Assembly: GCA_965199495.1 (NCBI GenBank)
Contig: CBDASK010000003.1
Coordinates: 2,944,001-3,008,000 of the forward strand
Direction: 5' to 3'
DNA length: 64,000 nt
DNA from: Abditibacterium sp.
Lineage (GTDB): Bacteria > Armatimonadota > Abditibacteriia > Abditibacteriales > Abditibacteriaceae
The notes beneath the pieces were generated by a model, which saw only the letters and a program-made list of their open reading frames with translations, was not told where the DNA came from and ran no database searches. Below, in pieces: positions 2,292 to 64,000 of this stretch. Position 1 is the first letter of the stretch. The number at the start of each line of letters is the position of its first letter. The position numbers and the translations under genes were made by a program.

Positions 2292-4262
2292 TCAACTGTC
2301 GCTTTCCAGCCACAAATTCTCCCAACTATCCACGCGCGCCGACCACTGCGGCGGCACCACAATCGTCGTATCGAACTGAAATACCAGACCCGGCCCGCGA
2401 AATTGCGCGCCGGGTCGTAGTTTTTCGCGCTCGAACAGCGCGGTTTGCAGCGCGCCCGCTTCAAAACACACCCTTTTGGAACCCACAGCCACGGCGGCGT
2501 GGCTGCTATCGGGCGCCGCGCTTTCGGTGGGCACATTCGCCGCGCGCCGCACGCGCAAACGTAACGTGACGGCTTCGACTTCGCGCGCTAAATCTGATAA
2601 TCCGTAACGCGCCTGATGCAAATCGTGAAACGCAGATTTCGCGACGGCCAAACTTGCGCTCGAAACCGGCAACGCGAGCGGCACGGCCAATTCGTAACTT
2701 TGCCCACGATAACGCGCTTCGATCTGCGCTTCGAGCGCGCCGTCCAAGGCGAAACTCGCGTTCATTTCCCGAATCAAATCGCCGATTTGCGGCGCCGTTA
2801 ATTCGTCAAAATCGCACAAAAGCGCGCGCGAGGCGTCGCGTGTTTCGTCGGCGACGATCATGCCCAGCGCCGACAAAACGCCGGGAAAACGCGGAATCAA
2901 AACGCGTTGTATGCCCATCAACTGCGCGAGTTCCGCCGCGTGCAACGGCCCGGCGCCGCCAAACGGCAGCAAAACAAACGGGCGCGGATCAACGCCGCGC
3001 GCGGTCGAAACGCGCCGCAACGCGCGCTCCATGTGCGCGTTGGCCACGCGAACGATGCCCAGCGCGGCGGCTTCGAGCGTTAAATTCAAAGCGCGCGCGA
3101 TGGGTTCGAGCGCAGTGCGGGCGGCGGCTTCGTCCAACGTCTTTTCGCCGCCCAGAAATCGCGGCGCGTCCAAACGGCCCAGAACCAAATTGGCGTCGGA
3201 GACCGTAGGCAAAACTCCGCCCAAACCGTAACAGGCCGGGCCGGGCGCAGAACCCGCCGACTGCGGCCCGACGCGCAGGGCGCTGCCTTCGTCCACGCGC
3301 GCCAAGCTGCCGCCGCCCGCGCCGACGGTGTGAATATCGAGCGAAGGCAAACGCAACGGCAAACCGCCGATTTCGCCTTCCGAACTGCGCGGCAAGTCGC
3401 CGTCGAGCAGAGCCACGTCGGTCGAAGTGCCGCCCATATCGAAAGTCAAAACTTGCTCGGCGCCCGCGCGCGCGGCCACAAAGCGCGCACCGACAACGCC
3501 GCCCGCCGGGCCGGACAAAACCAAACGCGCCGCCTGAGCCGACGCGGTCGCGATGTCGAGCGCGCCGCCACTCGACGCCAACACGCGCACGCGCGCATCG
3601 GGCAAACGCGCGGCTAAATTGCCCAGATATTTGGCGACGGGCGGCGCCAGATAGGCGTTGATGGCGCAAGTCGAAGTGCGTTCGTATTCGCGCGCTTCGG
3701 GCAAAAGTTCGTTGCCCAGAGTCAGCAAAACATCGGGCAGTTCGGCGCGCAAAATCTGCGCGGCGCGCCGTTCGTGGTCGGAATTGAGAAACGCCCACAA
3801 AAACACAATCGCCACGCTTTCCACGTTCAATTTACGCAATTGCGCCGCCACCGCACGCACGCCGTCTTCGTCGAGGGGCGTCACTATTTGACCGTACGCA
3901 TCTAATCGCTCGGCGACTTCAAAACGCAGTTCGCGACCGATAAGCGGCTCGATTTTGCGCGGCGACAAATCATACAAAACGGGCCGATTCTGGCGCGCGA
4001 TTTCCAAAACGTCGGCGAAACCCGCCGACGTCAGCAGCGCGGCGCGCGCGCCGTTGCGTTCCAATAACGCGTTGGTCGCCACGGTCGAACCATGAGCCAC
4101 GTCGCCGCGATAGTTCATCGCGTCAAGGCCGTCAGCGATGGCACGCGATTGGTCATCTGGCGTGGAAAGCCGCTTGCCGATGCGCCATTTTCCGTTCTCG
4201 AAAATCACGAAATCGGTGAAAGTGCCGCCGACATCGACGCCAGCCAGCGTGGGAGAATTCAT
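2292..4262 (-). CDS. Hydantoinase/oxoprolinase family A subunit
   Basis: GVDVGGTFTD, HGSTVATNALLE, SGPAGGV, DMGGTSTD, GAGGGS, FGGAGPLHA motifs. Confidence 0.92.
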   Translation of the reverse strand: MNSPTLAGVDVGGTFTDFVIFENGKWRIGKRLSTPDDQSRAIADGLDAMNYRGDVAHGSTVATNALLERNGARAALLTSAGFADVLEIARQNRPVLYDLSPRKIEPLIGRELRFEVAERLDAYGQIVTPLDEDGVRAVAAQLRKLNVESVAIVFLWAFLNSDHERRAAQILRAELPDVLLTLGNELLPEAREYERTSTCAINAYLAPPVAKYLGNLAARLPDARVRVLASSGGALDIATASAQAARLVLSGPAGGVVGARFVAARAGAEQVLTFDMGGTSTDVALLDGDLPRSSEGEIGGLPLRLPSLDIHTVGAGGGSLARVDEGSALRVGPQSAGSAPGPACYGLGGVLPTVSDANLVLGRLDAPRFLGGEKTLDEAAARTALEPIARALNLTLEAAALGIVRVANAHMERALRRVSTARGVDPRPFVLLPFGGAGPLHAAELAQLMGIQRVLIPRFPGVLSALGMIVADETRDASRALLCDFDELTAPQIGDLIREMNASFALDGALEAQIEARYRGQSYELAVPLALPVSSASLAVAKSAFHDLHQARYGLSDLAREVEAVTLRLRVRRAANVPTESAAPDSSHAAVAVGSKRVCFEAGALQTALFEREKLRPGAQFRGPGLVFQFDTTIVVPPQWSARVDSWENLWLESDS

Positions 4263-4306
4263 CGGCGTATAGTTTAGAACCACCGCGCGCGCGTTACATT
4301 TTGATA

Positions 4307-4380
4307 GCGGGGCTGACGCACCCTTCCAATCAGCGGAGTTCCTCGAAAGAATACGGATTGGAAGGGTGCGTCAGCCCCGC
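4307..4380. repeat. REP-like inverted-repeat element, family E (25-bp perfect arms)
   Basis: gcggggctgacgcacccttccaatc (4307-4331) ... gattggaagggtgcgtcagccccgc (4356-4380). Confidence 0.9.
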
Positions 4381-4430
4381 CGCCAAAAAGGAAGGCGCGA
4401 TTTAGTGCGATAAAGAAACTGCCATGTTTT

Positions 4431-4501
4431 GCAGGGCTGATGTCCTCTTCCAATCTTGGTGCGAAGGCGAATTCCCGATTGAAAGGGTGCGCAAGCCCCG
4501 C
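4431..4501. repeat. Degenerate second copy of family E element
   Basis: gcagggctgatgtcctcttccaatc ... gattgaaagggtgcgcaagccccgc aligns to 4307-4380. Confidence 0.75.
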
Positions 4502-4528
4502 TCTCAAAAGGCGAAACTTACCTCAATC

Positions 4529-4981: not shown

Positions 4982-5142
4982 GTAAGCGAATAAATTCGCA
5001 GCCATCCGCCCAAGGGGCACCCGAAGTGTCGGCCTGCGCCGACACGAAGAGGTTACTACAAAGAACTCTGCTTCACTCTTAAAATTTCCTCGTGTCGGCG
5101 CAGGCCGACACTTAACTGTGGCTGCGAATTTATTCGCTTACT
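4981..5142. repeat. Inverted-repeat element, family D, between convergent genes
   Basis: Outer arms agtaagcgaataaattcgcagcca/tggctgcgaatttattcgcttact; inner arms aagtgtcggcctgcgccgacacga/tcgtgtcggcgcaggccgacactt. Confidence 0.9.
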
Positions 5143-6034
5143 CAATTCGACTACTTGAACTGAAAGCAGAAACCTGCGGCTTTTTAAAACCGGTATAAAT
5201 CACGCCCGCCAAGGTGATCGCGCCGCCGAATAATGCCACGCCCGACGGCAATTCGTGTAGAAACAGCCAGCCCATCAAAACCGAAAGCGGTGCGACCAAA
5301 TAAAGGTAGTTCATCAGACGCGCGACCGGCATTTGCGACAGGCACCACATCCACAAAACGTAGCCCAGTGCACCGGGAAACGCGCCCAGCAACAGCAAAT
5401 TGAGCGTCGGCACAAGCGGTGCCGTTTTAACGGCCTGAACTAAGCCGCCGCCGAGGGGAATCAGCAAAAGTGTGCCGCAGAAGATCGCCGTGGCTGTGAC
5501 ATCGAGCGCGGCGTATTTCTGGAGTAGCGGTTTTTGCAGCGTGTTATAAATCGCCGCGCATAGCGCCGCGCCCATCACCAAAAAGGCGCCCGCGCTGAAA
5601 CCGATGCCGCTTTCGGCGCCCCACGCGATGAGAGCCACGCCGACCAGAGCGATGGCGCTGCCGCCCCAAACGCGCCCATTGACGCGCTCGCCCAGAAAAA
5701 TACGCGCGCTTAATGTGCTGAGAACCGGAATCGTCGAACCAATGAGCGCCGACGCGCCCGCCGTCACGGTTTGCTCGCCCGCGTTGAGGCACAAATTATA
5801 AAGCGTGAACCCGAACAATCCCGCGCCCAAAATGCGCGCCCAATCGGCGCGCTCGAAGCGCGGGCGCCGCGCCAAAATCAGCGGCAGCAAAATCGCCGAC
5901 GCCACGAGATAGCGCCCCAAAGCCAACTGCGCCGGGGAATAGGCTTCGACCGCCACGCGAATCGAAACCCACGCCGTCGCCCACGCCACAACCGAAACCG
6001 CGACGGCGAGCGGCAATTTGAATCGTGAATTCAC
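5138..6034 (-). CDS. DMT/EamA family transporter
   Basis: About 10 TM helices, two EamA repeats (LGER..., LHELP). Confidence 0.9.
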   Translation of the reverse strand: MNSRFKLPLAVAVSVVAWATAWVSIRVAVEAYSPAQLALGRYLVASAILLPLILARRPRFERADWARILGAGLFGFTLYNLCLNAGEQTVTAGASALIGSTIPVLSTLSARIFLGERVNGRVWGGSAIALVGVALIAWGAESGIGFSAGAFLVMGAALCAAIYNTLQKPLLQKYAALDVTATAIFCGTLLLIPLGGGLVQAVKTAPLVPTLNLLLLGAFPGALGYVLWMWCLSQMPVARLMNYLYLVAPLSVLMGWLFLHELPSGVALFGGAITLAGVIYTGFKKPQVSAFSSSSRIE

Positions 6035-7472: not shown

Positions 7473-10400
7473 ATGAAAATTACTCCCATTTTGCTCGCCA
7501 GTGCGCTCGTCGCGGGCGTCCCGTTGTTATGTCCGGTTCTCTCGAACGCCCAAAACGCCCAGAAAACTGCGGCCCAACCGATGTTTATTGGTGCGTCGCA
7601 ACTGTTGGCGAAGTTACCCGCGCCGAACAAACAAGAAAATGAGAGCAGGATGTATGATGAGCCGGGCGACGTTTTCTTCGGCGGCAAAATCGTGGGATTT
7701 GAAGAAGGCCCGGACAAAATGGTGCCCGATGCGCAACGTTTGGCGTCGTGGAAAGCCGATGCTAAAAGCTATCGCAAGGCGGGTGGCGCGCCAACGGCGG
7801 CGGCGTGGCTGCAATTGGAGGCACGCCGCGCCGCGATATTGAAACCCACGCCCAAACCGATGGCGCAGGGTGAAATGGGCACATCGCAGGGCGCCATCAT
7901 TCCGGCGTCCGATATGTTGGTAACGCCGGGATTTTCCAGTTCCGTCAACATTTTGCCCGCGCCCGACCAATGGCGCGCGTTGTTGCAGGGCGCGCGCAAG
8001 TCCTGCGACAATGCAGCCACGGCGCATAACGCGGCGGTTTATTATTTCGCGGCGCGACTCAACGGCGACGAGGCCGAACAAGTGAACGCCCTGCGCGCGC
8101 TCACTCGGATTTGGGCGCCCGTCGTGCGCGCCGACATCGCGGATAAAGCTAAAAATAACAACGACAGCGCGCGCCGCGCCGCGTTGCAGCACGACGATGC
8201 GTTGGCCGATTTGCTGGCGAACTCGCCCGATGTCGCGCAGCAGCAGTTGGGTCTGAGCTGGAAATTGCAAATCGGCGGCATCAACAATAATTACGCTTAC
8301 GTGGATTTGCCCGATTTGGTCAAAAACTGGGGCGCGGCGCGCGCCAAGGCTTTTCTGCCCGAAGTTTTGCGCTCCAAGGCGCGCGTTCAATGGTATGGCG
8401 CGGGCAAAACCGTGGATTTGGCGCGCGAGGTTTGGCTGGATAATCCCGATTTGCAAAACCAGCCGCAATGGCAATTGGTGCAGACGAGCGCCAATTTCAA
8501 CATGGATTTCGCGTTGAAATCATTGGAAAATTTCGCGAACCCCAAACCCAACGATTCCAATTTTTCCGACGGCTACAATTATCAATATGCACAAGCGGCG
8601 GTGCTGCAAAATTTGGTCAAGCGCGAGCAGTTCGCGCGTGCCGACGAGCTTTTATCGCAGTGGAACCGGCGCGGCCAGCTCAAGGCGGATTTGGGGTTTA
8701 GTCCTTACGACGACGAAGCCACGCTCGCGCAACAATTGGCGCAGTTGAGTTGGATGGAAACCACGATGCAGCATTTGCCGATGCTCGATTGGTGGTCTTC
8801 CTATCGCGATTTGGCGTTGAGAGCGGGCCAATCGAAGCGCGCATTGAACTTTGTGCAAACGCGTTTGGAAAATCCCAAAATCGCCCATCGCGGCGCGCTC
8901 CAAAGCGCGCTCGCCTCGCTTTACTTGGATAACGGCGAAATTGAAAAGGGCGGCGCGCTGTTGGCCGCGCAGGTCAAAGCGGGCACGCGCGCGAACGATG
9001 ATTTCCAAAATCGCGCGGGAAACGTCGCCAGTTTGCTGCGCCTGACGCGCGTGGCTCCTCATTTGGAGTGGCTGCAAATCGCGCGGACGGGCGCACAGAG
9101 TTTGGTCGCGACGCCGCTCGATGGTGGCAACGACGACGATAAAATTCGCAAAATCGCCGATGTCGCGCTGCAATTGCACGAACAAAACCAGAGCGTTTTC
9201 GCCAACCAACTATTGGCCCGCGCTTTGATCGCGGCCTCGCAAAAGCCCAAAGAAGAGTATGGTTCGCGGCCCGATGTCAAACCGTATTTGTATGCGCTGA
9301 TGACGATTTATCGCGATACCAACCACGCCAAAGACGCGCTTTATCTGCTGGAAAACGCGCGAGGTTGGGGCGCCGCCGAACTGTCGCCGCTTTTGACCTA
9401 TCACGGCGAAGATCAGTGGGGCGAAGACCACACCGATATTGACACCAAAGCGCGCGCGCCTTTGGGCGAATTGGTGACATGGGCTTTGGCGAAAAACAAT
9501 CGGCGCGCCCAAGCCGCGCAGGTCGCGCGTGCCACGCTCGAACGCGCGGCTGGTAACGATGGCGTCTACGCGCTGTTGGTGGATTTAGAAGGGCAAAAAG
9601 CCGTTCCATTTTTGCAAGAGTTGCAGGCGCGCGACCCTTACGAAGAACGCCCGCTCATCTGGCAGGCTGAACTGGCGCGGCGCGCGGGCAATTTGTCCAA
9701 AGCGGCGCAGTTGGCGCAAAGCGCGATTGCCGTTGATCCATCCGACGGCGAGCAGCCACGGGGCGACCGTCTGCGCGCTTATAGCGAATTGGCGAGCGTC
9801 AAACGCGCGCAGGGCGACGCGGCCAAAGCGGGCGAACTGAGCGAAGCCGTCGGGGCGATTCGGCTGAGCGAGACCGCCGACAAATGGCGCGTCGCGGGCG
9901 TGGCTCCGCGCGCCATCGCGCTCTACCGGCAATCACTCGGTTTGTTCGATAACGCCTATTGCGTGCAATCGCGGCTGGCCGTCGAGCTGACGAGTCAGGG
10001 CGATTTCGCGCAGGCGGCGCAACATTTCGAGCGCGCCTATCAATTGATGCCAATTTCGTTTGGCCGCATGGAAAGCCACTGTTTCGGCTGCGAAGGCGTC
10101 TTTGGCGGCACCAAAAGCGAGCCGATTGCGCGCCGTGTTTTTCGCCAGTTGGAAGCGGCGCAACCCAACAACGCCAAAGTGCAATATCTCGCCGGTTACT
10201 GGCGCATGAGCGCCGGGCAAAATCAGGCCGCGACCCAGTATTATCGGCGCGCCGTCCAACTCGATCCGCTTTATCTGTCGGCGTGGAAGAAGTTGGCCGA
10301 AAGCAAAAGTTTCCAGACACCGCTTCAGCAAGACGCCGCGACGCTCGCGGTTTTACGTTTAGACCCGGCCAGCCAGCACGACGATTACGGCGCGTCATTC

Positions 10401-10673: not shown

Positions 10674-12149
10674 ATGAATATCTCCGAAATTCCCTTGCCC
10701 GCCGCTTACGAAAACCTCGAACCCGCCGCCGTGTGGCAGCAATTCGCCGCGCTCAATTCGATTCCGCGTCCGTCGGGCGCCGAGGCGGCGGCGCGCGCCT
10801 ATGTGCAGCAACTCGCCAAAGCGCGCGGCGCGCGTTGGGACGCCGACACGCGCGGTAACATCGTGGTGCAGTTGCCCGCGTCGGGCGATAACGACGGCGC
10901 GCCCACAGTTGTGTTGCAGTCGCATCTCGATATGGTGTGCCAAAAGCGTCCCGAAACCGATCACGATTTCGCCGTTGACGCGATTTTACCTCGCCGCGAG
11001 GGCGACCGCATTTACGCGACCGGCACCACGCTGGGCGCCGACAACGGTCTGGGCGCCGCCATGATGCTGGCGATTTTAGCCGACGAAGGAGTCAATCATC
11101 CGCCGCTCGAATTGTTGTTCACGGTCGAAGAAGAAACCGGATTATTTGGCGCCGCCGAACTCGACCCCGATTTGGTTAAAGGCCGCTTGATGATCAATCT
11201 CGATTCGGAAGACCCTGACGAAATCATCATCGGTTGCGCGGGCGGCGCGACTACAACCTTGATTTTGCCGGTCGAGCGCGAAGCGTTGGATAATTCGGAC
11301 AACTGGCAAATCGTCGTTGGCGGTCTGGCGGGCGGACATTCGGGCGTCGAAATCGGCAAGCCGCTCGCCAACGCGATCAAAACGTTAATCGAAATCGTCA
11401 ACGCCGGGCGCATCGAAGCGCCCGAATCGCGCCTAATCGCGATTGACGGCGGCACCGCGCATAACGCGATTCCGCGCGATTGCATCGCGCATATCGCCGT
11501 TTTGAGCGCGCATCAAGCGGCGTTTGCCGCCGCCGTGGCTGCACGCACCGACGAACTTAAAACGCAATGGAAAACCGACGAGCCGAATCTGGAAATTACG
11601 CTTCAACCGTCCGATTCGACTTCGTTGCCCTTGAATGCAGCAGCCACGGCGACAGCCCTCGAACTTTTGCGTGCCCTGCCGCACGGCGTTTCAGCGATGA
11701 GCGAGCGGTTCGCGGGCAAAGTTCAGACTTCATCGAATTTGGCCGAAGTCACAACGCGCGAAGACGAAATCGAAATTCACATTTCCAACCGTTCGTTTGT
11801 GGCAAGCGACATCGCGAACTTGCAGCAAAATCAGGCCAATCTGGGCGAAGCGGCGGGCGCCAAAATTACCGCGCGCGACGGTTATCCCGGCTGGGAACCG
11901 CGCTCGGAATCGCCGCTACGCGAGAAAACAATCGCGGCTTATCGGCGCGCGATGGGTAAAGAACCGATTGTCGAAGTGGTTCACGCCGGTTTGGAATGCG
12001 GATTGTTGAGCGAGAAATTTCCCGGCCTTGACGCGGTTTCGTTTGGCCCGCTCATTAAGGGCGCGCACACGCCCGAAGAGTGGGCCTCGATTGAAAGCAC
12101 GCAAGAAATATGGAATTTGCTGACGGGATTGTTGAACGATTTGTCCTGA
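10674..12149 (+). CDS. pepD: Aminoacyl-histidine dipeptidase (M20C)
   Basis: IPRPSG, QSHLDMV, TTLGADNG, EEETGL, NLDSE, GGHSG, HAGLECG, HTPEE motifs. Confidence 0.93.
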   Translation: MNISEIPLPAAYENLEPAAVWQQFAALNSIPRPSGAEAAARAYVQQLAKARGARWDADTRGNIVVQLPASGDNDGAPTVVLQSHLDMVCQKRPETDHDFAVDAILPRREGDRIYATGTTLGADNGLGAAMMLAILADEGVNHPPLELLFTVEEETGLFGAAELDPDLVKGRLMINLDSEDPDEIIIGCAGGATTTLILPVEREALDNSDNWQIVVGGLAGGHSGVEIGKPLANAIKTLIEIVNAGRIEAPESRLIAIDGGTAHNAIPRDCIAHIAVLSAHQAAFAAAVAARTDELKTQWKTDEPNLEITLQPSDSTSLPLNAAATATALELLRALPHGVSAMSERFAGKVQTSSNLAEVTTREDEIEIHISNRSFVASDIANLQQNQANLGEAAGAKITARDGYPGWEPRSESPLREKTIAAYRRAMGKEPIVEVVHAGLECGLLSEKFPGLDAVSFGPLIKGAHTPEEWASIESTQEIWNLLTGLLNDLS

Positions 12150-44448: not shown

Positions 44449-44537
44449 ACCATGAAGGCGGATGAGAAAAAACCAATCGCGTCCCCTTTGCGTTTTCTTC
44501 GTGCCCGCCGTGGCTCATTGAAACTAAACTTTGGGCG

Positions 44538-54384: not shown

Positions 54385-56649
54385 TTAGCCGTTCGCCGTG
54401 GCTGCTGTTTGGGACGAGATCGCGCGCCGCGCCATTTGCACGCGCTCGAACAAATCTGTTTCGTCCTTGGTGGGCGTTCCAAACGGTGCCGCCAAAACCT
54501 CGGAGGCTTCAGCGCGACGTTCCATACGCTCCAACAGTCCAGCCAACAATAGGCGCGCTTTCCACTGATTATCGCGGCTGATGGCGGGCCGCGTCAACAG
54601 GCCGCGCGCTAAAACGCCCGTTGCGTTGGCGGCGCTTCGGTTCGCTGGCGGTTCGCGTCCGTCCTCGAACGCGCGCGCGAACATCGAATGGATGGCGCGC
54701 ATAATTTCGCTTTCCGTCATTTTGTCGTGCGGGCGCGCCAACAATTGCCGCGCGATGCGCATTCGCGCGGCGTTGGGCGCTACATCCAAACGCTCGGCCC
54801 AACCGAAATTCCACTTCTGCGTGCGCTCTTGCGCCAGATTGCGACGCAAAACTTCGGCCTCTTGCGCGGTGATGCTGGGCTGCAACGCCTTGCCGCCGCT
54901 CGGACTGCCGCGCGTCGAACTGAGCCATTGCGCGTGCTGCATCAAACGTTCGTAAACGATGTTGAGGCGGTCGAGATCGTTCGCGCCCAACTCGTTTTTG
55001 AGCGGTTTCCACAACTCGAACGCCGCCGCGTGCTGCCCGCCCGCCGAGAGCGCCGAGGCCGCCGCGAAGCGCCAATCGAGCGACGCGTTTTGGATGGTTT
55101 CGCTCTGGCGCGCGATGTGACGCGCCAAGTCGTTGGTGATGCCGACCTTATTCCATTTCAACGCCCACAACGGTTTATCGGCGCGTTCCGCCCCCTTGAG
55201 CGGCCAATTCTGGCTTTGCGAATAGGCGTTCCATGCGGCGGTTGTGGCCTCGTTGTCGCCCGATGTCGCGAACAATTTGTATTGGCCGAAGCCGAGGGGA
55301 GTCGTGTTGACGAAATCAGCAAGCGCCGCGCGCACGATGGTTTGCGTGCGGGCTTTAGGCGCGCGGTCGGCGCCATCGAAGAGCGCGCGATAGGCGGCAA
55401 AACCCTGTTCTGGCGGCACGTTTTCGGTGCGCAAACCGGCGAATCCGCGCAAGGACATCAACAAAAACCAGCGCCGTGAACCCGGTTTGGACGCGTTTGC
55501 CGCCTTCACGAGCAGTTTCCAACCGGCATCCGTGGGCAAAGCGTGCGTGCGGTGCGCGCCGAAATACAAACCGCGCAATAAAGCCGCGCAGCGCGGCTTT
55601 TCGATGTCGCGCAGCAAACGCGCCACGGTCGTTCGATCCCAATTCACCGGCGCGGGCGGCCCGATTTTTTCCAATTGCAGCCGCCGTGGCTGCAAGACGC
55701 GCGGCGAGTTTTCGCCGTTCAAACCGCCTTCGGCCCCATAAGCATTGGTGTCGGCGAGTTCGGTGAGCAACGCATCCACGACAAAACGCGGGTCGAAACG
55801 CGGCGTCAAATCCGCCGTGTAAACGCCGTTTTTGCCGCGCGTAAAACGCGGTTGCCAACGCGTAAAATGCGCGACATCCGCCGGAGCGAGCGTTCCGAAC
55901 AACGCGCTGTGCCCGGAGTCCGGCAACACGAAATTGGCATAAATATAATCGCCGTCGGGCGCTCCGTCACCGTCGAGATCGGGGCCGTAATCGCGCCGCC
56001 ACAAACGGCCCGCGATACCGGATGTCCCAAATTTCATCTTGTGTCCAACAATCGGCACCTGTTTTCCGGCGCGCTCAAAACTCATGCGATAAGTCACGTC
56101 TTGCGCTTCGCCCAGCGTCCGAATGCGCGGCTCCGTCCAACTTTCGCTGCTGTCCAATTCGTTCCAAGCGCCCTCAATTTCCCTCTCTTCTTCGGGCAAA
56201 GTCGCGCCCGCATAAGCCAGTTGCACCACGTCCAAACGCATTCCCGAAACGACTTTACCCAATGCGACGCCATTTTCGTCGGTGAGCGGTTGCGTCATAA
56301 CGATGCGCGGCGCGCCCGGCGCGTCATCGCCAGCCACGCCAAACACACCGGCGCCGCCTTCGACTATTTTTGGGACGGGCACGCGAAACCCGACCATCTT
56401 TTCGCCGAAAGTCCCGTCGCCCGCGCGCATTCCGCCCGTCGTCGCGGTGATTTTGAAACGCGCTTCATGCACTGCATCGCCTTCGATGCCGCCGATGGCG
56501 AACGATTTGTCGAGCAACTCGAACTTAATTTGCGGCACAAACGGCGAACGGCCCGACGACGGCGCATCTGCGGTTTGCGCGCGCGCCGACGGGGGCGCGA
56601 ACAGCAAGAAAACAGCGATGCCGGGGCAGAGAAAACGAATCATTGACAT
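54385..56649 (-). CDS. Hypothetical exported protein
   Basis: Signal peptide ARA; DLDGDG motif; helical C-terminal half. Confidence 0.7.
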   Translation of the reverse strand: MSMIRFLCPGIAVFLLFAPPSARAQTADAPSSGRSPFVPQIKFELLDKSFAIGGIEGDAVHEARFKITATTGGMRAGDGTFGEKMVGFRVPVPKIVEGGAGVFGVAGDDAPGAPRIVMTQPLTDENGVALGKVVSGMRLDVVQLAYAGATLPEEEREIEGAWNELDSSESWTEPRIRTLGEAQDVTYRMSFERAGKQVPIVGHKMKFGTSGIAGRLWRRDYGPDLDGDGAPDGDYIYANFVLPDSGHSALFGTLAPADVAHFTRWQPRFTRGKNGVYTADLTPRFDPRFVVDALLTELADTNAYGAEGGLNGENSPRVLQPRRLQLEKIGPPAPVNWDRTTVARLLRDIEKPRCAALLRGLYFGAHRTHALPTDAGWKLLVKAANASKPGSRRWFLLMSLRGFAGLRTENVPPEQGFAAYRALFDGADRAPKARTQTIVRAALADFVNTTPLGFGQYKLFATSGDNEATTAAWNAYSQSQNWPLKGAERADKPLWALKWNKVGITNDLARHIARQSETIQNASLDWRFAAASALSAGGQHAAAFELWKPLKNELGANDLDRLNIVYERLMQHAQWLSSTRGSPSGGKALQPSITAQEAEVLRRNLAQERTQKWNFGWAERLDVAPNAARMRIARQLLARPHDKMTESEIMRAIHSMFARAFEDGREPPANRSAANATGVLARGLLTRPAISRDNQWKARLLLAGLLERMERRAEASEVLAAPFGTPTKDETDLFERVQMARRAISSQTAATANG

Positions 56650-56681: not shown

Positions 56682-58034
56682 TTAATTCGACGCCTTCGCG
56701 GCTTGATCCAATGCGCGTTGCGCGTGTTCGCGCAAATAGGAATCGGGATGATTGCGCGCTGTTTCTCGTGTAATTTCCAACGCTGCTGGCGAGCCGATGG
56801 AGACTAACAAATCAACCGCGCTCGATGCACTAAAATCGGAGTGGTGCCGCAAAAACGCGGCGATTAAACCCAATTCGTCCGTGACCGGCGGGCGCGTGGC
56901 TGTATCGAGGCGCGAGTAAATCTGTTCGAGCGAACTGACGGTTGCCCTTTCCAAATCGTTGGGCAAGTCGGGCCGTTTCAAAACGGCGAACAGTGGTGCG
57001 ACGGCGCGCGTATCGGCGCTTTCGCCCAAAGTGCGCGCGGCGTCTAATTGCACCTGCGCGCTCGGATCGTCCAACATTTCGATGATGCGCGGCACGACTT
57101 CGGACGCTTTACCTTCGCGCAACCAGCCGATGAAACGCGAGGGCGCCAGAGCGCGCACACGTTCGTCGGCATCGTCCAAACGTGCGACGAGCGCAGCTTT
57201 GGCGGCGGGCGTGCGGTCGTTGCTATTGCCCACATCAATCATGGCGCGAATTCTAATTTCCGGGTTGGGATGTCGAGTCAAATCAACTAAAATCGCGTCG
57301 GTTGCGGGCGTCTCATAGGTCGCCAGGGCCAGACTGGCGTCATCAATTAATGTCTCGTGATCGCCGCGCGCGATAGCTACAATCAACGGCAACGCGAGTT
57401 GCGAACGCTGAAATCGCAAGCCGCGCAACGCGGTCTGTTTCACATCCGCATCGGGATTTCTGAGTAATTCGGTCAACTCCTTTTCAAACGACGCCGAGTT
57501 GTCGCGGTCGAACGGCAAATTTGAGATAACGCGTCGCGCCTCGCTTTTGAGAATCGGATTCTCGCTGGTCGCCAACCCAAACATCGCGCGTGCGAGGGAT
57601 TCTTTAGCGGCAATGGGCGGCAACTTCAGCAACGTTTCGATGGCCTCGAAAGTTTGCATTTTGGTCTGCGGCGTATAGGTCAGCGATGCCCAACCGTCGT
57701 CCATAATTGTCAGAGGCGCCGCGCGCTTCAAGAACAAAACGACGGTTTCGCCCTCGCGAAAAATCCGCGAAGCCATGCTGGTAACTTCGACGGGAGCGAC
57801 TTCGACAACCGATGCAGCCACGTCGCCTTTGAAGTTGCGTTCGATGGCGAATTGCGCGCGTCCTTGAGCGATGTTTTGTATCGTGCCCGCCAAGATCAAA
57901 TCGCTGGTTTGCGCGCGCTCCAAAAACGAGACATTGGGCGACATAAACGCGTGCGCCGGACGCGCCATCAATATCAAACAAAACGCCACCGAGAAAACGA
58001 CGGTTTGGGAGATGAGCGAAAAGTTGAGTTTCAT
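56682..58034 (-). CDS. Exported HEAT-repeat protein
   Basis: Signal peptide AHA; repeated L.D.D..VR..A...LG motifs. Confidence 0.85.
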   Translation of the reverse strand: MKLNFSLISQTVVFSVAFCLILMARPAHAFMSPNVSFLERAQTSDLILAGTIQNIAQGRAQFAIERNFKGDVAASVVEVAPVEVTSMASRIFREGETVVLFLKRAAPLTIMDDGWASLTYTPQTKMQTFEAIETLLKLPPIAAKESLARAMFGLATSENPILKSEARRVISNLPFDRDNSASFEKELTELLRNPDADVKQTALRGLRFQRSQLALPLIVAIARGDHETLIDDASLALATYETPATDAILVDLTRHPNPEIRIRAMIDVGNSNDRTPAAKAALVARLDDADERVRALAPSRFIGWLREGKASEVVPRIIEMLDDPSAQVQLDAARTLGESADTRAVAPLFAVLKRPDLPNDLERATVSSLEQIYSRLDTATRPPVTDELGLIAAFLRHHSDFSASSAVDLLVSIGSPAALEITRETARNHPDSYLREHAQRALDQAAKASN

Positions 58035-58039: not shown

Positions 58040-59215
58040 TTAATTTTCCGATTGACGCCGCGAAACCCACGCATGAATTAACAAACCTTGAAAGAACTCG
58101 ACAGGCATTTCAAATCCGCCCGCTTCAATTATCACCTCGACTTCGTGCGGCGGCAAAACCACATTGTTGGTCACATAGCCCGCCGTGAATTTCTCTATTT
58201 CGTCGTCGGGAACGCCAGAAAATCTCATCATTCCAATCCAGCTTTCCAACAATTTTTTGTAATTATAAGTTGAAACATCCGACGCCAAATCGGAACTGAC
58301 GAGCAACGCGCCCGGCTTCAGACGCGCCGCGATTTCGCTAAAAAAACTGGCCCGCGCCTCGCGTTGCGAAAAACTATGCGAGACCATCAGCGCCGTGGCT
58401 GCATCGTAAGCCACGCCGCCCGGCAACGTATCGAGCGCGCCTTCATGAAACGTGCAACGACTGGAAAAACCCAACTCTTCGACGCGCGCGCGACAAATAT
58501 CGAGCATCGCTTTCGCTGGCTCAACCGCCGTGAATTTCCAGTTCGGATAAACCTTCGCCAATTCGATGAGTTCGGTTCCGGTTCCCAATCCAACGCATAA
58601 AACGTGCGCATCGGCGGGCAAATCGGCCAGCACGAAACGCATGGAAAAACGCAGCGCATCGAACAAAGGCGCCGACGGATTCATACGCTCATCGTAAGTT
58701 TGGGCGCGTTTACGGTCGAAGACAATTGTGGATTTACTGGCGACAATTTCGTCCAAGCTAACCGCGTTCTGGCAACGCACCAACGCCTGATAACGATTGG
58801 CGCCCGCTTCCAATCCGCCCGCCGTCCGCCACAGTTTGTCGCCATCGTAGTTGGTAGTTTCAATCGCGCGTTGATGATTATATTCGCCAAATAACGTAGT
58901 GAAATCGGGCACGAACTCATAATCGCCGATAACTTCGACGACCAATTCGCGGCCCTTGTCGCCCGACAAAATTATCAGGTCGCCAATTTGAACGTCGTGG
59001 CAAAAGCTCCACAAGCTCTCCGAACCCGACTTGAAATTGGGGCGGATCGGCGGCGGATAATGAGTTGGAAGAGTGGCTTTAATATCAGCTTTGGTTTGAT
59101 ATTGCGTCACATCTCCGACTTTGCCCCAACCGATGGTGATGCGCCGGTTTTTGCGTATCCAAGCCATCGCCGTGGCTCTGTCGGTGTGATGAACGATCAT
59201 TCTCCATATAGTCAT
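58040..59215 (-). CDS. Fusion of restriction-system-type N-terminal domain and class I SAM methyltransferase
   Basis: N-terminal IGWG..GD, F...VQIGD.I, V.GDYEF, HQR; C-terminal VLCVGLGTG.E, VEPA..ML, LKPGA. Confidence 0.75.
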   Translation of the reverse strand: MTIWRMIVHHTDRATAMAWIRKNRRITIGWGKVGDVTQYQTKADIKATLPTHYPPPIRPNFKSGSESLWSFCHDVQIGDLIILSGDKGRELVVEVIGDYEFVPDFTTLFGEYNHQRAIETTNYDGDKLWRTAGGLEAGANRYQALVRCQNAVSLDEIVASKSTIVFDRKRAQTYDERMNPSAPLFDALRFSMRFVLADLPADAHVLCVGLGTGTELIELAKVYPNWKFTAVEPAKAMLDICRARVEELGFSSRCTFHEGALDTLPGGVAYDAATALMVSHSFSQREARASFFSEIAARLKPGALLVSSDLASDVSTYNYKKLLESWIGMMRFSGVPDDEIEKFTAGYVTNNVVLPPHEVEVIIEAGGFEMPVEFFQGLLIHAWVSRRQSEN

Positions 59216-61294: not shown

Positions 61295-61328
61295 AAGCGG
61301 CGCCGCTCTTTCGAGCCACGCCGCTTTT
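61295..61328. terminator. Probable terminator downstream of lpdA
   Basis: aagcggcg...ctc-tttc-gag...cgccgctttt imperfect hairpin. Confidence 0.55.
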
Positions 61329-61340: not shown

Positions 61341-62756
61341 TTACTTTTTCACTTTCGGCGCGGGCGCCTTGATATGCGTGGCTTGCCCGAACGTCACTTC
61401 CGCCGCTTCCATCACGGTTTCGCTGAGCGTTGGGTGCGCATGAATCGTCAGTTTGATGTCGTCGGCCAAGGCGCCCATTTCGATGGCGAGCGTGCCTTCG
61501 GCGATGAGTTCGCCCGCGCCGCTTCCGGCGATGCCGACGCCCAAAACGCGATTGGTTTCGGGATCCAGAATCATTTTGGTCAAGCCATCGGTGCGGCCCA
61601 ACGTCACGGCGCGTCCGCTCGCGGGCCAGGGGAACTTGGCGACTTTAATTGGGCGCTCCATTTTGGCGGCTTCGGTTTCGGTGAGTCCGGCCCACGCCAA
61701 TTCTGGATCGGTGAAAATTACGGCGGGAATCGCGTTCGGCTCGAAGACGACATCGTGTCCGGCGATGTGCTCGACGGCGATGCGGCCTTCGTGCGAGGCT
61801 TTGTGCGCCAGCATCGGGTCGCCCGCGATGTCGCCGATGGCGTAAATCGTTGGTTCAACCGTCTGGCGCGCGCCGTTGACCGGCACGAAACCGCGTTTAT
61901 CGAGTTCGATTTTCGTATTTTCCAAACCCAAATCGCGCGTGTTGGGCGTGCGTCCGACCGAAATCAAGACTTTATCGAAAACCGATTCGCCCGGATGTTT
62001 GCCCTCGAACTTGACTTTGATTTTGCCTTTCTCTTCCTTCAATTCGGCGACTTTGGTATCGAGCGCGATGTCTTTGAAGTTCGATTCCAAACGCTTTTGC
62101 AGAATCGCCACCAAATCGCGGTCGGCGCCCGGCAACAAGCCCGACGTGGCTTCGACAACTGTCACTTCGCTGCCCAACGCCGAATAGACGCTGCCCAGTT
62201 CCAAACCGATGTAGCCGCCGCCGATGACGAGCAATTTTTTCGGGATGGTTTTAATCAACAACGCTTCGGTTGAGTCCATTACCAGTTCGGGATTGATGTT
62301 AAACGCCGGAATCACGGCGGGGCGCGAACCGGTGCAGAGAATCGCTTTGTCGAAGGTTAATTTTTCCTCGCCCTTTTCGGTCTGAATCGTCAGCGATTTG
62401 TTGTCGTTGAACTTCGCGCGGCCCTGAATGTAATTGATTTTGCGGGCTTTGGCCAATTGGCCGGTGCCGCCCGTCAATTTCTGGACGACGCCCAACTCAA
62501 AGCCGCGCAGTTTGTCGAGATCAATTTTCGGCTCGCCGAAACTCAATCCGTAATCGGCGGCTTCGCGCGCTTCGTGAATAACTTTGGCGGCGTGCAGCAA
62601 AGTTTTCGACGGAATGCAGCCGCGATACAAACAAACGCCGCCGGGATTGGCTTCGAGGTCAACGAGCGTGGTTTCGATGCCTAAGTCGGCGGCCAAAAAC
62701 GCGGCGGCATAACCGCCGGGGCCAGCGCCGATAACAACTAATTTGGTGTGGGACAT
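61341..62756 (-). CDS. lpdA: Dihydrolipoyl dehydrogenase (E3)
   Basis: GAGPGGY, GGVCLYRGCIPSK, GGGYIGLE, MLAHKA, HAHPTLSE. Confidence 0.97.
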   Translation of the reverse strand: MSHTKLVVIGAGPGGYAAAFLAADLGIETTLVDLEANPGGVCLYRGCIPSKTLLHAAKVIHEAREAADYGLSFGEPKIDLDKLRGFELGVVQKLTGGTGQLAKARKINYIQGRAKFNDNKSLTIQTEKGEEKLTFDKAILCTGSRPAVIPAFNINPELVMDSTEALLIKTIPKKLLVIGGGYIGLELGSVYSALGSEVTVVEATSGLLPGADRDLVAILQKRLESNFKDIALDTKVAELKEEKGKIKVKFEGKHPGESVFDKVLISVGRTPNTRDLGLENTKIELDKRGFVPVNGARQTVEPTIYAIGDIAGDPMLAHKASHEGRIAVEHIAGHDVVFEPNAIPAVIFTDPELAWAGLTETEAAKMERPIKVAKFPWPASGRAVTLGRTDGLTKMILDPETNRVLGVGIAGSGAGELIAEGTLAIEMGALADDIKLTIHAHPTLSETVMEAAEVTFGQATHIKAPAPKVKK

Positions 62757-62773
62757 AGTTTTGGTAGAACTCC

Positions 62774-62868
62774 GTAGAGACACCGACTTGTCGTGTCTAA
62801 AATTTAACGCTCACCTCAATGTCGAAGTAACTCAGGCGTTTTTAGACACGACAAGTCGGTGTCTCTAC
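62774..62868. repeat. GTAG-type REP doublet, family A subtype 2
   Basis: gtagagacaccgacttgtcgtgtctaaaa ... ttttagacacgacaagtcggtgtctctac. Confidence 0.93.
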
Positions 62869-62880
62869 GGGGGTGTGAGG

Positions 62881-64000
62881 CTAACCTTCCAGCACAATTA
62901 AGTTCGGGTCTTCGATCAGGCTCGCCAGAAAACGCGTGAAGCGCGCACCGTTGGCGCCATCAATCACGCGATGATCGTAGCTCAAGCAGAGCGGCATCAT
63001 CATGCGCGGCTCGAAAGTGCCGGATTCTTTGTTCCAAATCGGCTCCATCGAACCGCGCGCGATGCCCAAAATCGCGACTTCGGGCGTGTTGACAATCGGC
63101 GTGAATGCCGTGCCGCCGATGCCGCCCAAATTGGAAAGCGTAAACGTGCCGCCCGACATCTGTTCGGGTTTGAGCTTGCCATCGCGCGCTGTCGCCGCGA
63201 TTTCGTTCAATTCGACGGCCAGTTCGATGATGCCTTTGCTCTCGCAATTTTTAATCACCGGCACGACCAAACCGCGCGGCGTATCAACAGCCACGCCGAC
63301 GTTGTAGAACTTTTTGCGCACGACTTCGTTGGTCGCAAAATCAATCGAAGCATTGAAATCGGGGAATTTTTTCAACGCCGCGACGGTGATTTTGAGCAAA
63401 ATCGCGGTCGGCGTTAATTTCGTTCCGGCTTTCTCGGCCAGAGCGCCGTATTGTTTGCGGAACGCATCGAAAGCGGTCGAATCGGCTTTATCGAATTGGG
63501 TGACGTGCGGAATCGTCCACGCGCGCGACATCTGCGTCGAAGTCGCCTTGCGAATGCCCGACATCGGCACGCGCTCGGTTTCGCCCAGTTTGGAGAAATC
63601 GGGCAACGCGGGCATTTCGATGCCGCCGGTTTGCGCCGCAACTTTGGGCGCTTCGGGCGTCGCGGTTTTGCCGAAGTTTTTCACGTCGTCTTCGGTGATG
63701 CGTCCACCCAAACCGGTGCCTTTGACTTCGTGAATATCTACGCCCATTTCGCGCGCCATGCGGCGCGTCGAAGGCGCGGCGGGCGCCGGGTCTTTCACGA
63801 CTTCTGGCGTATTGACGACGGGCGCGGGCGCTTGCGTACCGACGGGCGCGGCGGTGTCCACCATGCCATCGTTTTTGACGGGCGTTGCGGCGGGAATTTG
63901 TCCAGTCGCCGGAGCGCCGACTTTGCTTTGGCTGGCGGCGGTCTGCTCGGCGTCTTTCGATGCAGCCGCAGTCGCCGTGGCTGCTGTTGCGGGCGCGCTG
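62881..64000 (-). CDS. aceF: Dihydrolipoamide acetyltransferase (E2), 5' end outside window
   Basis: Ala/Pro linker, E3-binding AAPSTRRMARE.GVD...GTG..GRI, PHVTQFD.AD, SYDHRVIDGA. Confidence 0.9.
   Translation of the reverse strand, partial: SAPATAATATAAASKDAEQTAASQSKVGAPATGQIPAATPVKNDGMVDTAAPVGTQAPAPVVNTPEVVKDPAPAAPSTRRMAREMGVDIHEVKGTGLGGRITEDDVKNFGKTATPEAPKVAAQTGGIEMPALPDFSKLGETERVPMSGIRKATSTQMSRAWTIPHVTQFDKADSTAFDAFRKQYGALAEKAGTKLTPTAILLKITVAALKKFPDFNASIDFATNEVVRKKFYNVGVAVDTPRGLVVPVIKNCESKGIIELAVELNEIAATARDGKLKPEQMSGGTFTLSNLGGIGGTAFTPIVNTPEVAILGIARGSMEPIWNKESGTFEPRMMMPLCLSYDHRVIDGANGARFTRFLASLIEDPNLIVLEG

What the first reader, a model, noticed from the sequence alone, without database searches (positions are those of the whole stretch)
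2486..63984. Highly iterated 9-mer CGTGGCTGC embedded in genes: candidate undescribed DNA-uptake/HIP-type chromosomal signal
Seen: I counted by eye at least 32 exact copies, about 1 per 2 kb. CGTGGCTGC occurs on + at 2498, 7804, 11534, 13006, 13649, 16432, 19973, 22227, 33815, 35726, 37678, 39463, 42955, 45240, 46941, 50042, 54397, 55685, 58394 and 63976. GCAGCCACG occurs at 8013, 9752, 11640, 18328, 19575, 23178, 26314, 28875, 34063, 40903, 47917 and 57814. Some 25 more copies of the 7-mer core CGTGGCT/AGCCACG are present, and most full copies extend to G-[GCA]-CGTGGCTGC. A zero-order estimate at about 58% GC predicts about 1 copy. All 32 lie in CDS and are read in different frames (V-A-A, W-L-Q, A-A-T, Q-P-R, S-H-G/V), often using GCT or GCA Ala codons although GCG/GCC appear to dominate elsewhere. 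This points to selection at the DNA level. Established: Neisseria DUS, Pasteurellaceae USS and cyanobacterial HIP1 show this pattern, whereas Chi and KOPS are strongly strand-polarised; the split here is 20:12. Inference: a lineage-specific uptake, recombination, methylation or nucleoid-protein signal. I know of no description of this motif.
Basis: partly seen in the sequence, partly recalled or inferred. Interest (0 to 1): 0.78.

Follow-up and report, generated by a model that had tools for sequence, protein, structure and literature searches.

The report
Uptake-sequence-like DNA word in Abditibacterium
A soil/rock bacterium of the little-known phylum Abditibacteriota and its two closest relatives write one short DNA word thousands of times into their chromosomes but not into their plasmids or phages, the pattern known from the DNA-uptake sequences of Neisseria and Haemophilus, although uptake itself has not been tested.

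Summary
All 32 copies sit at the stated places. The true word is longer: CG[ACG]CGTGGCT(G)(C)(A/T). It has 2,799 chromosomal copies against about 96 expected, and 0 and 2 copies on the plasmid and the phage-like contig.

It survives the nulls that keep codons and proteins: 1,630 copies in genes against 96 ± 10. It occurs in all six frames, is 35-fold enriched between genes, and shows no replichore polarity.

Of the 31 class genomes searched, only this one and its two nearest relatives are enriched, and the three group together on a single-gene tree. Sites keep their position while their flanks diverge. One relative carries a second dialect around the shared core CGTGGCTG, at some of the same gene positions.

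No RecC, AddB or ComP homologue was found, and Vsr is not shared by the three genomes. Type IV pilus, ComEC, ComEA-like and DprA genes are present.

Best reading, at about 45%: a DNA-uptake-type self-recognition word. Its reader is unidentified and its function untested. The library searches found no description of it. This scan has noted analogous words in other genomes, but not this one.

The parts
2485..2506 (.). Two overlapping copies in divergent orientation (rc core10 at 2485-2496, full 12-mer at 2495-2506), inside a gene
3409..3420 (-). core 10-mer CGACGTGGCT
4093..4104 (-). core 10-mer
5486..5497 (+). core 10-mer
5631..5642 (-). core 10-mer
7801..7812 (+). full 12-mer CGGCGTGGCTGC
8013..8024 (-). 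full 12-mer
9752..9763 (-). 9-mer without CGV prefix
11531..11542 (+). full 12-mer
11640..11651 (-). full 12-mer
13003..13014 (+). 9-mer without CGV prefix
13646..13657 (+). full 12-mer
14478..14489 (+). core 10-mer
15933..15944 (-). core 10-mer (inside recO)
16429..16440 (+). full 12-mer (inside trpA)
18328..18355 (.). full 12-mer (-) and core 10-mer (+) 16 bases apart, inside the NAD(P)HX repair gene
19575..19586 (-). full 12-mer
19970..19981 (+). full 12-mer
22224..22235 (+). full 12-mer (inside a prepilin-like gene)
23178..23189 (-). full 12-mer
26314..26325 (-). 9-mer without CGV prefix
28660..28671 (+). core 10-mer
28875..28886 (-). full 12-mer
30534..30545 (-). core 10-mer
31272..31283 (-). 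core 10-mer
31722..31733 (-). core 10-mer
33812..33823 (+). full 12-mer
34063..34074 (-). full 12-mer
35723..35734 (+). full 12-mer
37675..37686 (+). 9-mer without CGV prefix
39460..39471 (+). full 12-mer
40903..40914 (-). full 12-mer
42952..42963 (+). full 12-mer
43427..43438 (-). core 10-mer
44506..44517 (+). core 10-mer
45204..45248 (.). core 10-mer (-) and full 12-mer (+) 33 bases apart
46938..46949 (+). 9-mer without CGV prefix
47917..47928 (-). 9-mer without CGV prefix; outside my gene calls (coding status ambiguous)
50039..50050 (+). full 12-mer
52377..52388 (+). core 10-mer
54394..54405 (+). full 12-mer
55682..55693 (+). full 12-mer
57814..57825 (-). full 12-mer
58391..58418 (.). full 12-mer (+) and core 10-mer (-) as a close convergent pair
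59168..59179 (+). core 10-mer
61312..61323 (-). core 10-mer
62142..62153 (+). core 10-mer
63287..63298 (-). core 10-mer
63973..63984 (+). full 12-mer

Best explanation
CG[ACG]CGTGGCT(GC) is a DNA-level self-recognition word of one young Abditibacterium clade. It most likely works like the DNA uptake sequences of Neisseriaceae and Pasteurellaceae.

Shown:
- The word is hyper-abundant on the chromosome in either orientation, in any frame, and between genes.
- It is at background level on the plasmid and the phage-like contig, and absent from the long stretches examined that carry a prophage, integrated islands or a low-GC sugar locus.
- It is kept in place between sister species while its flanks diverge.
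- It arose by multiple substitutions, often changing amino acids.
- One sister species carries a second flank dialect around the same core.

Inferred:
- An unidentified protein, possibly a component of the type IV pilus/competence apparatus, prefers DNA that carries the word.
- Fragments of the species' own DNA are therefore taken up and recombined more often.
- Any mutation that creates or improves a copy is over-transmitted (molecular drive), so copies pile up across the long-resident core genome and not in newly arrived DNA.
For: Abundance and sharpness:
- 2,799 core 10-mers against 96 expected.
- One-base variants of core positions 4-9 lie at 0.4-2.1 times expectation, 0.79 overall by my sum of the rows. 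Peripheral positions lie at 1.1-8.8 times.
- Sharp words are also reported for DUS: in Kingella oralis, allowing one mismatch adds only 21% (PMC3630211, passages read).

Not a coding effect:
- Protein-preserving codon permutation gives 95.6 ± 9.6 against 1,630.
- All six frames are used.
- Intergenic DNA holds 232 copies against 6.7 expected.

Strand symmetry: 1,392 forward and 1,407 reverse copies, and the best replichore split is 51.1%.

Absent from mobile DNA:
- C1 (RepA/MobA plasmid) has 0 copies and C2 (portal, tape measure) has 2.
- The long copy-free stretches hold serine recombinases, defence genes, a prophage and a low-GC polysaccharide locus.

Clade pattern:
- 3 of 31 class genomes are enriched, and they group at 99/99 on a single-gene E1-beta tree.
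- Three motif-less congeners sampled at 400 kb each show no comparably abundant word (G012).

Maintenance of sites:
- 106 sites share their position out of 133 in G011 and 162 in G000. Only 29% of random 10-mers are identical.
- Flanks are as diverged as controls, 0.84-0.87.

Directional origin: non-shared sites differ from G012 by 3.24 substitutions against 2.42 for background, and the peptide is unchanged at only 12 of 32 sites.

Dialect:
- G004 carries AGGACGTGGCTGGTGTC, 173-174 sites per 400 kb.
- 13 of the 40 such sites that align to G000 fall exactly where G000 also has the core, in eight or nine of them with G000's own CG[ACG] prefix.
- 45 inverted pairs form long hairpins.
- Two dialects in one genome are also reported for Simonsiella muelleri (PMC3630211).

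Machinery present: ComEC, DprA, a ComEA-like HHH_3 protein, secretins, three PilT-family genes over the cut-off, and a PilB-PilT-PilC-PilD operon followed by four prepilin-like genes.
Against: - No uptake or transformation data exist for this phylum in the library searched.
- No reader was identified. No ComP_DUS match turned up in 13 genomes, although that search had no positive control.
- The competence and pilus genes, the pilin operon and the window's prepilin cluster are also present in motif-less congeners, so they do not explain the clade restriction.
- In G000 only 30 convergent hairpins exist, which is 60 of 2,799 copies, and only 5 have a T- or A-run. About half of known DUS/USS lie in predicted terminators (abstract of 10.1101/2025.10.24.684340).
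- In G000 the word is less dense between genes than within them.
- The other congeners sampled have no word at all, unlike Neisseriaceae, where dialects span the family.
- Earlier notes of this scan report similar words in phages and giant viruses, where uptake cannot be the cause (unchecked notes).
Confidence: 0.45

Rival explanations
1. Binding word of an intracellular chromosome-specific DNA-binding protein, such as a nucleoid-associated, condensing or self-marking factor that tells the chromosome from plasmids and phages. Selection for occupancy, not uptake, keeps the sites.
For: - The distribution is even and chromosome-wide, in both orientations, with fewer short gaps than a Poisson model predicts: 213 against 313 gaps under 200 bp.
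- The word is absent from mobile DNA.
- It is 10-20 bp long and asymmetric, which fits a protein footprint better than an enzyme target.
- Unchecked notes of this scan report similar words in viruses.
Against: - No known nucleoid protein imposes thousands of near-exact 10-mers inside genes at the cost of rare codons and amino-acid changes (the comparison itself is from my own knowledge).
- No candidate gene was found.
- Motif-less congeners do without such a system.
Confidence: 0.17
2. A HIP1-like word. It would accumulate through a sequence-specific modification or repair bias, for example a methyltransferase with a very-short-patch-type repair that turns near-matches into matches, without any role in DNA uptake.
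For: - One-base variants of the core are mildly depleted, about 0.79 of expectation, as expected if near-matches are converted.
- Positions are conserved, as reported for HIP1 (start of the abstract of PMC13756078, seen in the listing).
- C5-methyltransferase genes are present.
Against: - Vsr was found over its cut-off only in G004, on a small contig. G011 gave no match and G000 only a weak sub-threshold one.
- C5-methyltransferases also occur in motif-less G012, G002 and G003.
- The word is asymmetric, with 9-10 fixed contiguous bases, and about 16-20 in the G004 dialect. That is longer than the targets of known methyltransferases (from my own knowledge).
- A 29-fold excess far exceeds what Vsr-type bias is known to produce (from my own knowledge).
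Confidence: 0.12
3. An unknown templated or biased gene-conversion process. A short nucleic-acid template or a sequence-specific nicking enzyme would rewrite near-matching sites in place.
For: - Very sharp core.
- Sites made by several substitutions at once.
- Concerted replacement of flanks at the same positions in G004.
Against: - The flanks are probabilistic, 0.5-0.85 per position, and one internal position is free (A, C or G). That looks like a protein preference, not a copied template.
- No candidate enzyme was found.
- Y1 transposase genes are genus-wide and are not flanked by the word.
Confidence: 0.08
4. Chi-like recombination hotspot or nuclease-attenuating self marker.
For: - Enriched in the core genome and missing from mobile DNA.
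- The G004 dialect contains GCTGGTG, seven of the eight letters of E. coli Chi (the Chi sequence is recalled).
- Replication-linked asymmetries are weak in this genome in general: gene co-orientation was 51% at the split tested, and the GC skew is weak. Missing polarity is therefore weaker evidence than usual.
Against: - No polarity: 51.1% at the best split.
- No RecC and no AddB of either type in a 95%-complete closed genome.
- The word is 10-20 bases long and 29-fold in excess, against 5-8 bases and a few-fold for known Chi sites (from my own knowledge).
Confidence: 0.04
5. Remnants of a REP/REPIN- or MITE-type mobile element, or a codon or peptide artefact.
For: - About half of the type-B copies in G004 sit in roughly 50-nt hairpins between genes, which resemble REPINs.
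- V-A-A and A-A-T readings make up 76% of genic copies in G000.
Against: - In G000 92% of the 9-mers are genic.
- Copies arise by substitution at aligned positions, not by insertion.
- The flanking logo decays within 3 bases.
- Protein- and codon-preserving nulls fail by 17-fold and 6-fold.
- The Y1 transposase gene of G000 that carries obvious flanking palindromes (C3:3721491-3721820) has a different repeat of its own.
Confidence: 0.03

Closest known systems
DNA uptake sequence (DUS) of Neisseriaceae and its dialects, read by the minor pilin ComP (PMC3630211, passages read)
   Same: - An asymmetric word of 10-12 bases with a strict core and graded flanks.
- Thousands of copies, covering about 0.6-0.7% of the chromosome (my arithmetic). 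About 1% is reported for N. meningitidis.
- Both strands, inside genes at permissive places.
- Inverted pairs forming hairpins.
- Clade-congruent dialects that share a core.
- Two dialects in one genome, as in Simonsiella muelleri.
- Few one-mismatch copies.
- Missing from mobile elements.
   Different: - Another phylum.
- No ComP_DUS match.
- No sequence likeness to the CTG-core DUS.
- In G000 only about 2% of copies are in hairpins and 8% of the 9-mers lie between genes.
- The sister lineages sampled have no word at all.
- Uptake is untested.
Uptake signal sequence (USS) of Pasteurellaceae (consensus as quoted in PMC13020248; PMC2817400 seen as a search listing only)
   Same: - A 9-base core plus weaker flanks.
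- Mostly inside genes, in frames that give tolerated peptides.
- Strand-symmetric.
- Roughly one copy per 1-2 kb.
   Different: - GC-rich word.
- No AT-rich phased flanks in G000.
- Reader unknown in both cases.
- No competence regulon evidence here.
HIP1 (GCGATCGC) of cyanobacteria (PMC13756078, start of the abstract seen in the listing)
   Same: Hyper-abundant, conserved in position, spread evenly, and of unsettled function.
   Different: - HIP1 is a palindrome recognised by two methylases.
- This word is asymmetric and 10-20 bases long.
- No methylase or Vsr tracks it.
Chi and KOPS/AIMS polar words
   Same: Enriched in the core genome and rare in mobile DNA.
   Different: - No replichore polarity.
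- No RecC or AddB.
- Much longer and much more enriched.
REP/REPIN elements with RAYT transposases
   Same: The intergenic hairpins of G004, each built from two inverted type-B copies.
   Different: - Genic single copies arise by substitution.
- No RAYT gene was seen next to the word in G000.
- G004's Y1 genes were not inspected.

Membership tests
DNA uptake enhancing sequences (DUS/USS) | Short word many-fold over-represented on both strands, genome-wide | tested here: met
   2,799 against 96 expected; 1,392 forward and 1,407 reverse; nulls
DNA uptake enhancing sequences (DUS/USS) | DNA carrying the word is preferentially bound, taken up and transformed | not testable with these tools
DNA uptake enhancing sequences (DUS/USS) | Cognate receptor (ComP-type minor pilin in Neisseriaceae) | tested here: not met
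   PF16732 gave no match in 13 genus genomes, but the search had no positive control. Four large prepilin-like genes follow the pilus operon, yet they also occur in motif-less congeners
DNA uptake enhancing sequences (DUS/USS) | Competence machinery present (type IV pilus with retraction ATPase, ComEA, ComEC, DprA) | tested here: met
   Not specific: the control genomes also match
DNA uptake enhancing sequences (DUS/USS) | Dialects that share a core and follow phylogeny | tested here: met
   G000 and G011 carry type A; G004 carries type A plus type B around CGTGGCTG; single-gene tree
DNA uptake enhancing sequences (DUS/USS) | About half of the copies, and most inverted pairs, in transcription terminators | tested here: not met
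   G000 has 30 convergent hairpins, 14 of which touch intergenic DNA and 5 of which have a T- or A-run. In G004's type B about half the copies are intergenic and 45 pairs were counted per 400 kb, so the feature is met only in that dialect
DNA uptake enhancing sequences (DUS/USS) | Depleted in mobile or recently acquired DNA | tested here: met
   C1 has 0 and C2 has 2 copies; the copy-free stretches are islands, a prophage and a sugar locus
Chi / KOPS | Strong orientation bias with the direction of replication | tested here: not met
   Best two-breakpoint split 51.1%
Chi | RecBCD or AddAB enzyme that reads it | tested here: not met
   No RecC; no AddB of either type
HIP1-type | Palindromic word that is the target of resident methylases | tested here: not met
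   The word is asymmetric. Methylation itself cannot be tested here. Vsr and C5-methylases do not track the clade
REP/REPIN-RAYT | Extragenic palindromes spread by a flanked RAYT gene | tested here: not met
   92% of the 9-mers are genic; they arise by substitution; the Y1 genes of G000 are not flanked by the word. The G004 hairpins were not tested for a RAYT

The most novel reading that the evidence does not exclude
This would be a third, independent origin of sequence-specific DNA uptake, outside the Proteobacteria and in the barely studied phylum Abditibacteriota. It would have been caught young, since only three species carry it. It would also have been caught during a dialect shift, in which the flanks of existing sites are being rewritten lineage by lineage around a fixed core.
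Probability: 0.4. Interest if true: 0.85.

Novelty: new variant of a known kind. Interest (0 to 1): 0.72.

Why it matters
According to the papers read, uptake-specificity words are known from only two proteobacterial families. How such words arise is an open question, because both known systems are old and family-wide.

Here the word exists in three sister species and is missing from the closest other lineages. A single comparison of a few genomes could therefore name the gene that creates the specificity.

The co-existing dialects at the same gene positions show directly how a genome-wide word is rewritten.

If uptake is confirmed, the word would also be a practical handle for genetic work in a phylum that has almost no tools. 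Its density would give a simple marker for telling native from acquired DNA in these genomes.

Tried and rejected
- Maximal-order Markov z-scores were uninformative, because the sub-words are themselves enriched. I replaced them with low-order models.
- C5-methylase, Vsr and Y1-transposase families across the genus did not track the word.
- Motif copies near the Y1 genes of G000 were at ordinary density. One Y1 gene has a different repeat of its own.
- The window's five tandem prepilin genes are also present in motif-less relatives.
- The pilus operon is syntenic in G004, G009, G010 and G012.
- The 618-aa minor pilin is genus-wide, has no PDB relative, and matches families only at its N-terminus.
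- No ComP_DUS match was found.
- The type-B word is not enriched in any of the 120 other phylum genomes sampled. G004 and G011 were not in that sample, and G000 itself shows 88 copies against 5 for the control word.
- Sequencing runs: one run holds the stretch and others hold small shares. No RNA holder is listed.
- Laying contigs of four runs on window 2401-22400 gave 40 listed differences out of 6,444. None falls in a copy, but only about 0.2-0.6 would be expected by chance, so nothing follows.
- Flank identity around shared sites showed no sign of recent exchange between G000 and G011.
- An earlier-findings look-up by place gave only an unrelated island note.

Full report
**Observation.** The 100 dinucleotide shuffles gave a mean of 0.91 and a maximum of 4. 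The window is part of a 4.72-Mb chromosome (55.75% GC) that comes with contigs of 24.7 and 64.6 kb. The chromosome has 863 + 917 copies of the 9-mer, and the two small contigs have 1 and 2.

**The word.** A logo and a single-substitution scan show a longer word:
- The prefix is C (0.79), G (0.85), then any base but T.
- The stretch CGTGGCT follows.
- After it come G (strong), C (moderate) and A/T (weak).

The 10-mer core CG[ACG]CGTGGCT occurs 2,799 times on the chromosome (1,392 forward, 1,407 reverse), about one per 1.7 kb. It occurs 0 and 2 times on the small contigs. The window has 26 full 12-mers, 21 core-only copies, 6 9-mers without the prefix, and 16 bare 7-mers.

One-base variants of the six core positions GTGGCT lie at 0.4-2.1 times an order-3 expectation, 1,471 observed against 1,856 expected by my sum. 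Variants of the prefix lie at 1.1-8.8 times. The core is thus very sharp and the edges are graded.

**Is it more than chance or coding?**
- Markov models of order 0-4 predict 60-129 9-mers against 1,780.
- I called genes crudely, using the longest ORFs ranked by a codon log-odds score. This gave 3,652 genes covering 85.5% of the chromosome.
- Permuting synonymous codons within each gene, which keeps every protein and each gene's codon usage, gives 95.6 ± 9.6 copies against 1,630 observed.
- Shuffling codon order gives 54.
- Resampling codons given the previous codon gives 253.5, even though that table already contains the word's own contribution.
- Genic copies fall in all six frames: V-A-A 674, A-A-T 563, S-H 169, W-L 130, Q-P-R 61, R-G-C 33. 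A further 150 9-mers lie between genes.
- Measured against intergenic composition, the core 10-mer is 35-fold enriched there, 232 against 6.7.
- The word uses the two rarest Ala codons, GCT at 10.5% and GCA at 6.3%.

This is a signal in the DNA, not in the proteins.

**Orientation and spacing.** There is no replichore polarity. The best of all two-breakpoint splits puts 51.1% of copies on one 'leading' strand. Genes are 51.0% co-oriented at that split, and the GC skew is weak.

Gaps under 200 bp are fewer than a Poisson model predicts, 213 against 313. The exception is very close pairs, which are almost all inverted: 114 inverted against 8 direct within 100 bp.

Some pairs are hairpins between genes, a few with a T-run. 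Others are in-frame palindromes inside genes, at spacings of 5, 8 and 11. In total G000 has only 30 convergent hairpins, 14 of which touch intergenic DNA and 5 of which have a T- or A-run.

**Where it is missing.** C1 carries RepA, MobA/MobL, a TraG-like protein and ArdC. C2 carries portal, S49 protease and tape-measure genes. Both are at background for the word, 0 against 0.33 and 2 against 0.76 expected.

The long copy-free chromosomal stretches I examined hold the following:
- large serine recombinases and ParB;
- E2/ThiF/JAB, Mrr, SNF2 and KAP-NTPase defence-type genes;
- a prophage with capsid and portal genes;
- a 48.7%-GC polysaccharide locus.

**Who has it.** Record titles of the nearest loci place the organism in Abditibacterium/Abditibacteriaceae.

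Among the 31 genomes searched across the class, only three are enriched for the 10-mer: G000 (2,801), G011 (2,548) and G004 (912). The other 28 have 41-211 copies, close to their reversed-word controls. The 9-mer gives the same picture in a partly different set of 31 relatives.

On a single-gene tree of pyruvate dehydrogenase E1-beta (11 genus genomes plus 2 family loci; G001 and G003 were left out for lack of a full-length match), the three form one group with 99/99 support, as (G004,(G000,G011)). Identity to G000 is 98% and 94% for these two, against 83% or less for the rest.

Samples of 400 kb from three motif-less congeners (G012, G009, G006) show no comparably abundant word. Their top 9-mers have 13, 20 and about 42 copies, the last belonging to a longer repeat. 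The same-sized samples of the word-bearing genomes give 119-226 copies (G012).

**Evolution of the sites.**
- G011 is 84.8% identical to G000 over 217 kb of aligned sample. Of 133 G011 sites and 162 G000 sites in those alignments, 106 are at the same position. Only 29% of random 10-mers are identical.
- The flanks of shared sites are no more conserved than the flanks of other conserved 10-mers, 0.84-0.87 in both. What is kept is the word itself.
- With G004 (79.8% identity), 21 sites are shared out of 45 and 176. With G012, 1 of 38 G000 sites is shared.
- Non-shared G000 sites differ from the relative at more of the nine fixed positions than background 10-mers do: 3.24 against 2.42 for G012 and 2.44 against 1.65 for G004.
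- The encoded peptide is unchanged at only 12 of 32 and 56 of 125 such sites.

Copies are therefore made by several directed substitutions, often at the cost of an amino-acid change.

**A second dialect.** In G004 most copies of the 7-mer core carry other flanks, with consensus (CCGT)AGGACGTGGCTGGTGTC(G). There are 173-174 such sites per 400 kb, beside 72 type-A 10-mers.

By a loose ORF call, about half the type-B sites are intergenic, 56 of 110. There are 45 inverted pairs, with a modal gap of 23, that form long hairpins. One example folds at -38.8 kcal/mol, z = -5.3.

Of the 40 type-B sites that lie in stretches alignable to G000, 13 sit exactly where G000 also has the core, in eight or nine of them with G000's own CG[ACG] prefix. 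The flanks have therefore been rewritten, in a lineage-specific way, around a shared core CGTGGCTG.

The type-B word is not enriched in any of the 120 other genomes sampled across the phylum. That sample did not include G004 or G011.

**Mechanism.** The features match point by point what the papers I read report for DUS and USS (PMC3630211 passages; abstract of 10.1101/2025.10.24.684340; PMC13020248 passages):
- a short asymmetric word with a strict core;
- about 1% of the genome;
- both strands;
- permissive places inside genes;
- inverted pairs;
- dialects that follow phylogeny;
- two dialects in one genome;
- few one-mismatch copies.

Absence from mobile elements matches the title and abstract start of PMC7371117, which I saw only in the listing.

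G000 has the generic machinery: ComEC, DprA, a ComEA-like protein, several secretins, three PilT-type ATPases, and an operon PilB-x-PilT-PilC-PilD followed by four large prepilin-like genes.

I therefore rate a DNA-uptake-type self-recognition word, spread by molecular drive through transformation, as the best explanation, at about 45%. The drive and the uptake preference are inferred. Nothing here measures them.

**What speaks against it, and the rivals.**
- The machinery is also present in motif-less congeners.
- No ComP homologue was found (no positive control).
- G000 makes almost no use of the word in terminators.
- The sister lineages sampled have no word at all.

A Chi-like role is unlikely, given no polarity, no RecC, no AddB, and a word that is too long.

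A methylase/Vsr-driven, HIP1-like origin lacks a tracking gene. Vsr is over its cut-off only in G004, and C5-methylases also occur in motif-less genomes. The word is also longer than any methylase target I know of.

A mobile-element origin is excluded for G000 by the substitution pattern.

Two rivals remain open: a chromosome-marking DNA-binding protein, and an unknown conversion process. Unchecked notes of this scan describe similar words in phages and giant viruses, and this kept my odds on uptake below one half.

**Novelty.**
- Full-text searches for the word and its variants returned only primer-type hits among the 20 listed of 543.
- Searches joining Abditibacterium or Armatimonadota with competence and uptake terms listed nothing relevant.
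- A search for uptake sequences with k-mer and phylum terms listed no candidate outside Neisseriaceae and Pasteurellaceae.

Supplements were not consulted. Earlier notes of this scan report analogous words in other genomes (Pontibacter, a Leptospira-like group, a Bacteroidota genome, phages, giant viruses), but none reports this word.

Noticed in passing
window 21337-24400: Five tandem paralogous prepilin-like genes (229, 196, 196, 196 and 200 aa). Three match the H-X9-DG C-terminal domain model. The cluster is also present, in 2-4 copies, next to the same E1-beta gene in three of the related MAG loci that have no core 10-mer.
   Followed up: partly
G000 contigs C1 (24.7 kb) and C2 (64.6 kb): C1 looks like a mobilisable plasmid (RepA, MobA/MobL, TraG-like, ArdC, TacA-type antitoxin). 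C2 looks like an extrachromosomal phage or phage-plasmid (Mu-type portal, S49 protease, a 2,400-aa tape-measure protein).
   Followed up: partly
G000:C3:3721300-3722100 (outside the window): A Y1 (RAYT-like) transposase gene of 160 aa is flanked on both sides by its own palindromic repeat (GGCGAATAAATTCGCAGCCACAG...), a REP-type family unrelated to the word.
   Followed up: no
G000 chromosome, genome-wide: Other repeated words of about 100-160 copies (for example TAAATCGGCGTC and ATTCTTCGACTTCGT) point to further repeat families that I did not examine.
   Followed up: no
G000:C3:429847-449846 and 506738-525957 (L099, L100): Copy-free islands carry ubiquitin-like conjugation sets (E2, ThiF/E1, JAB, multiubiquitin, a CEHH metal-binding domain). 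They sit beside a serine recombinase, ParB, DUF932, a double-GTPase pair and an Mrr nuclease.
   Followed up: no
G000:C3:861065-880963 (L116, L174): Complete type IV pilus operon. Its four prepilin-like proteins are far more diverged between species (32-59% identity) than PilT and PilC (81-93%). The large downstream gene is duplicated in G000 (1,366 and 1,328 aa), whereas both copies match one region in each of the four relatives compared.
   Followed up: partly
G004 small contigs C1-C7 (L035-L041): About 107 copies of one longer repeat (containing GGAATAGCACCCTAGG and ATCCGTCTTCA) in the first 82-kb sample, which covered contigs C1-C7 and the first 20 kb of C3 and C8. It may be a CRISPR array; I did not locate it.
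   Followed up: no
G006 and G009 samples (L150-L169, L130-L149): G006 has about 42 copies per 400 kb of a longer repeat (GATTAAAGG, CACAAAGCTC, TTGTGGGATT). G009 has about 20 copies of a word around GACAGACGTCT, which contains the palindrome AGACGTCT.
   Followed up: no
G000 whole genome: No RecC and no AddB of either type were found, so the usual Chi-reading end-processing enzymes seem to be missing. RecO lies in the window at 15239-16063 (-).
   Followed up: partly
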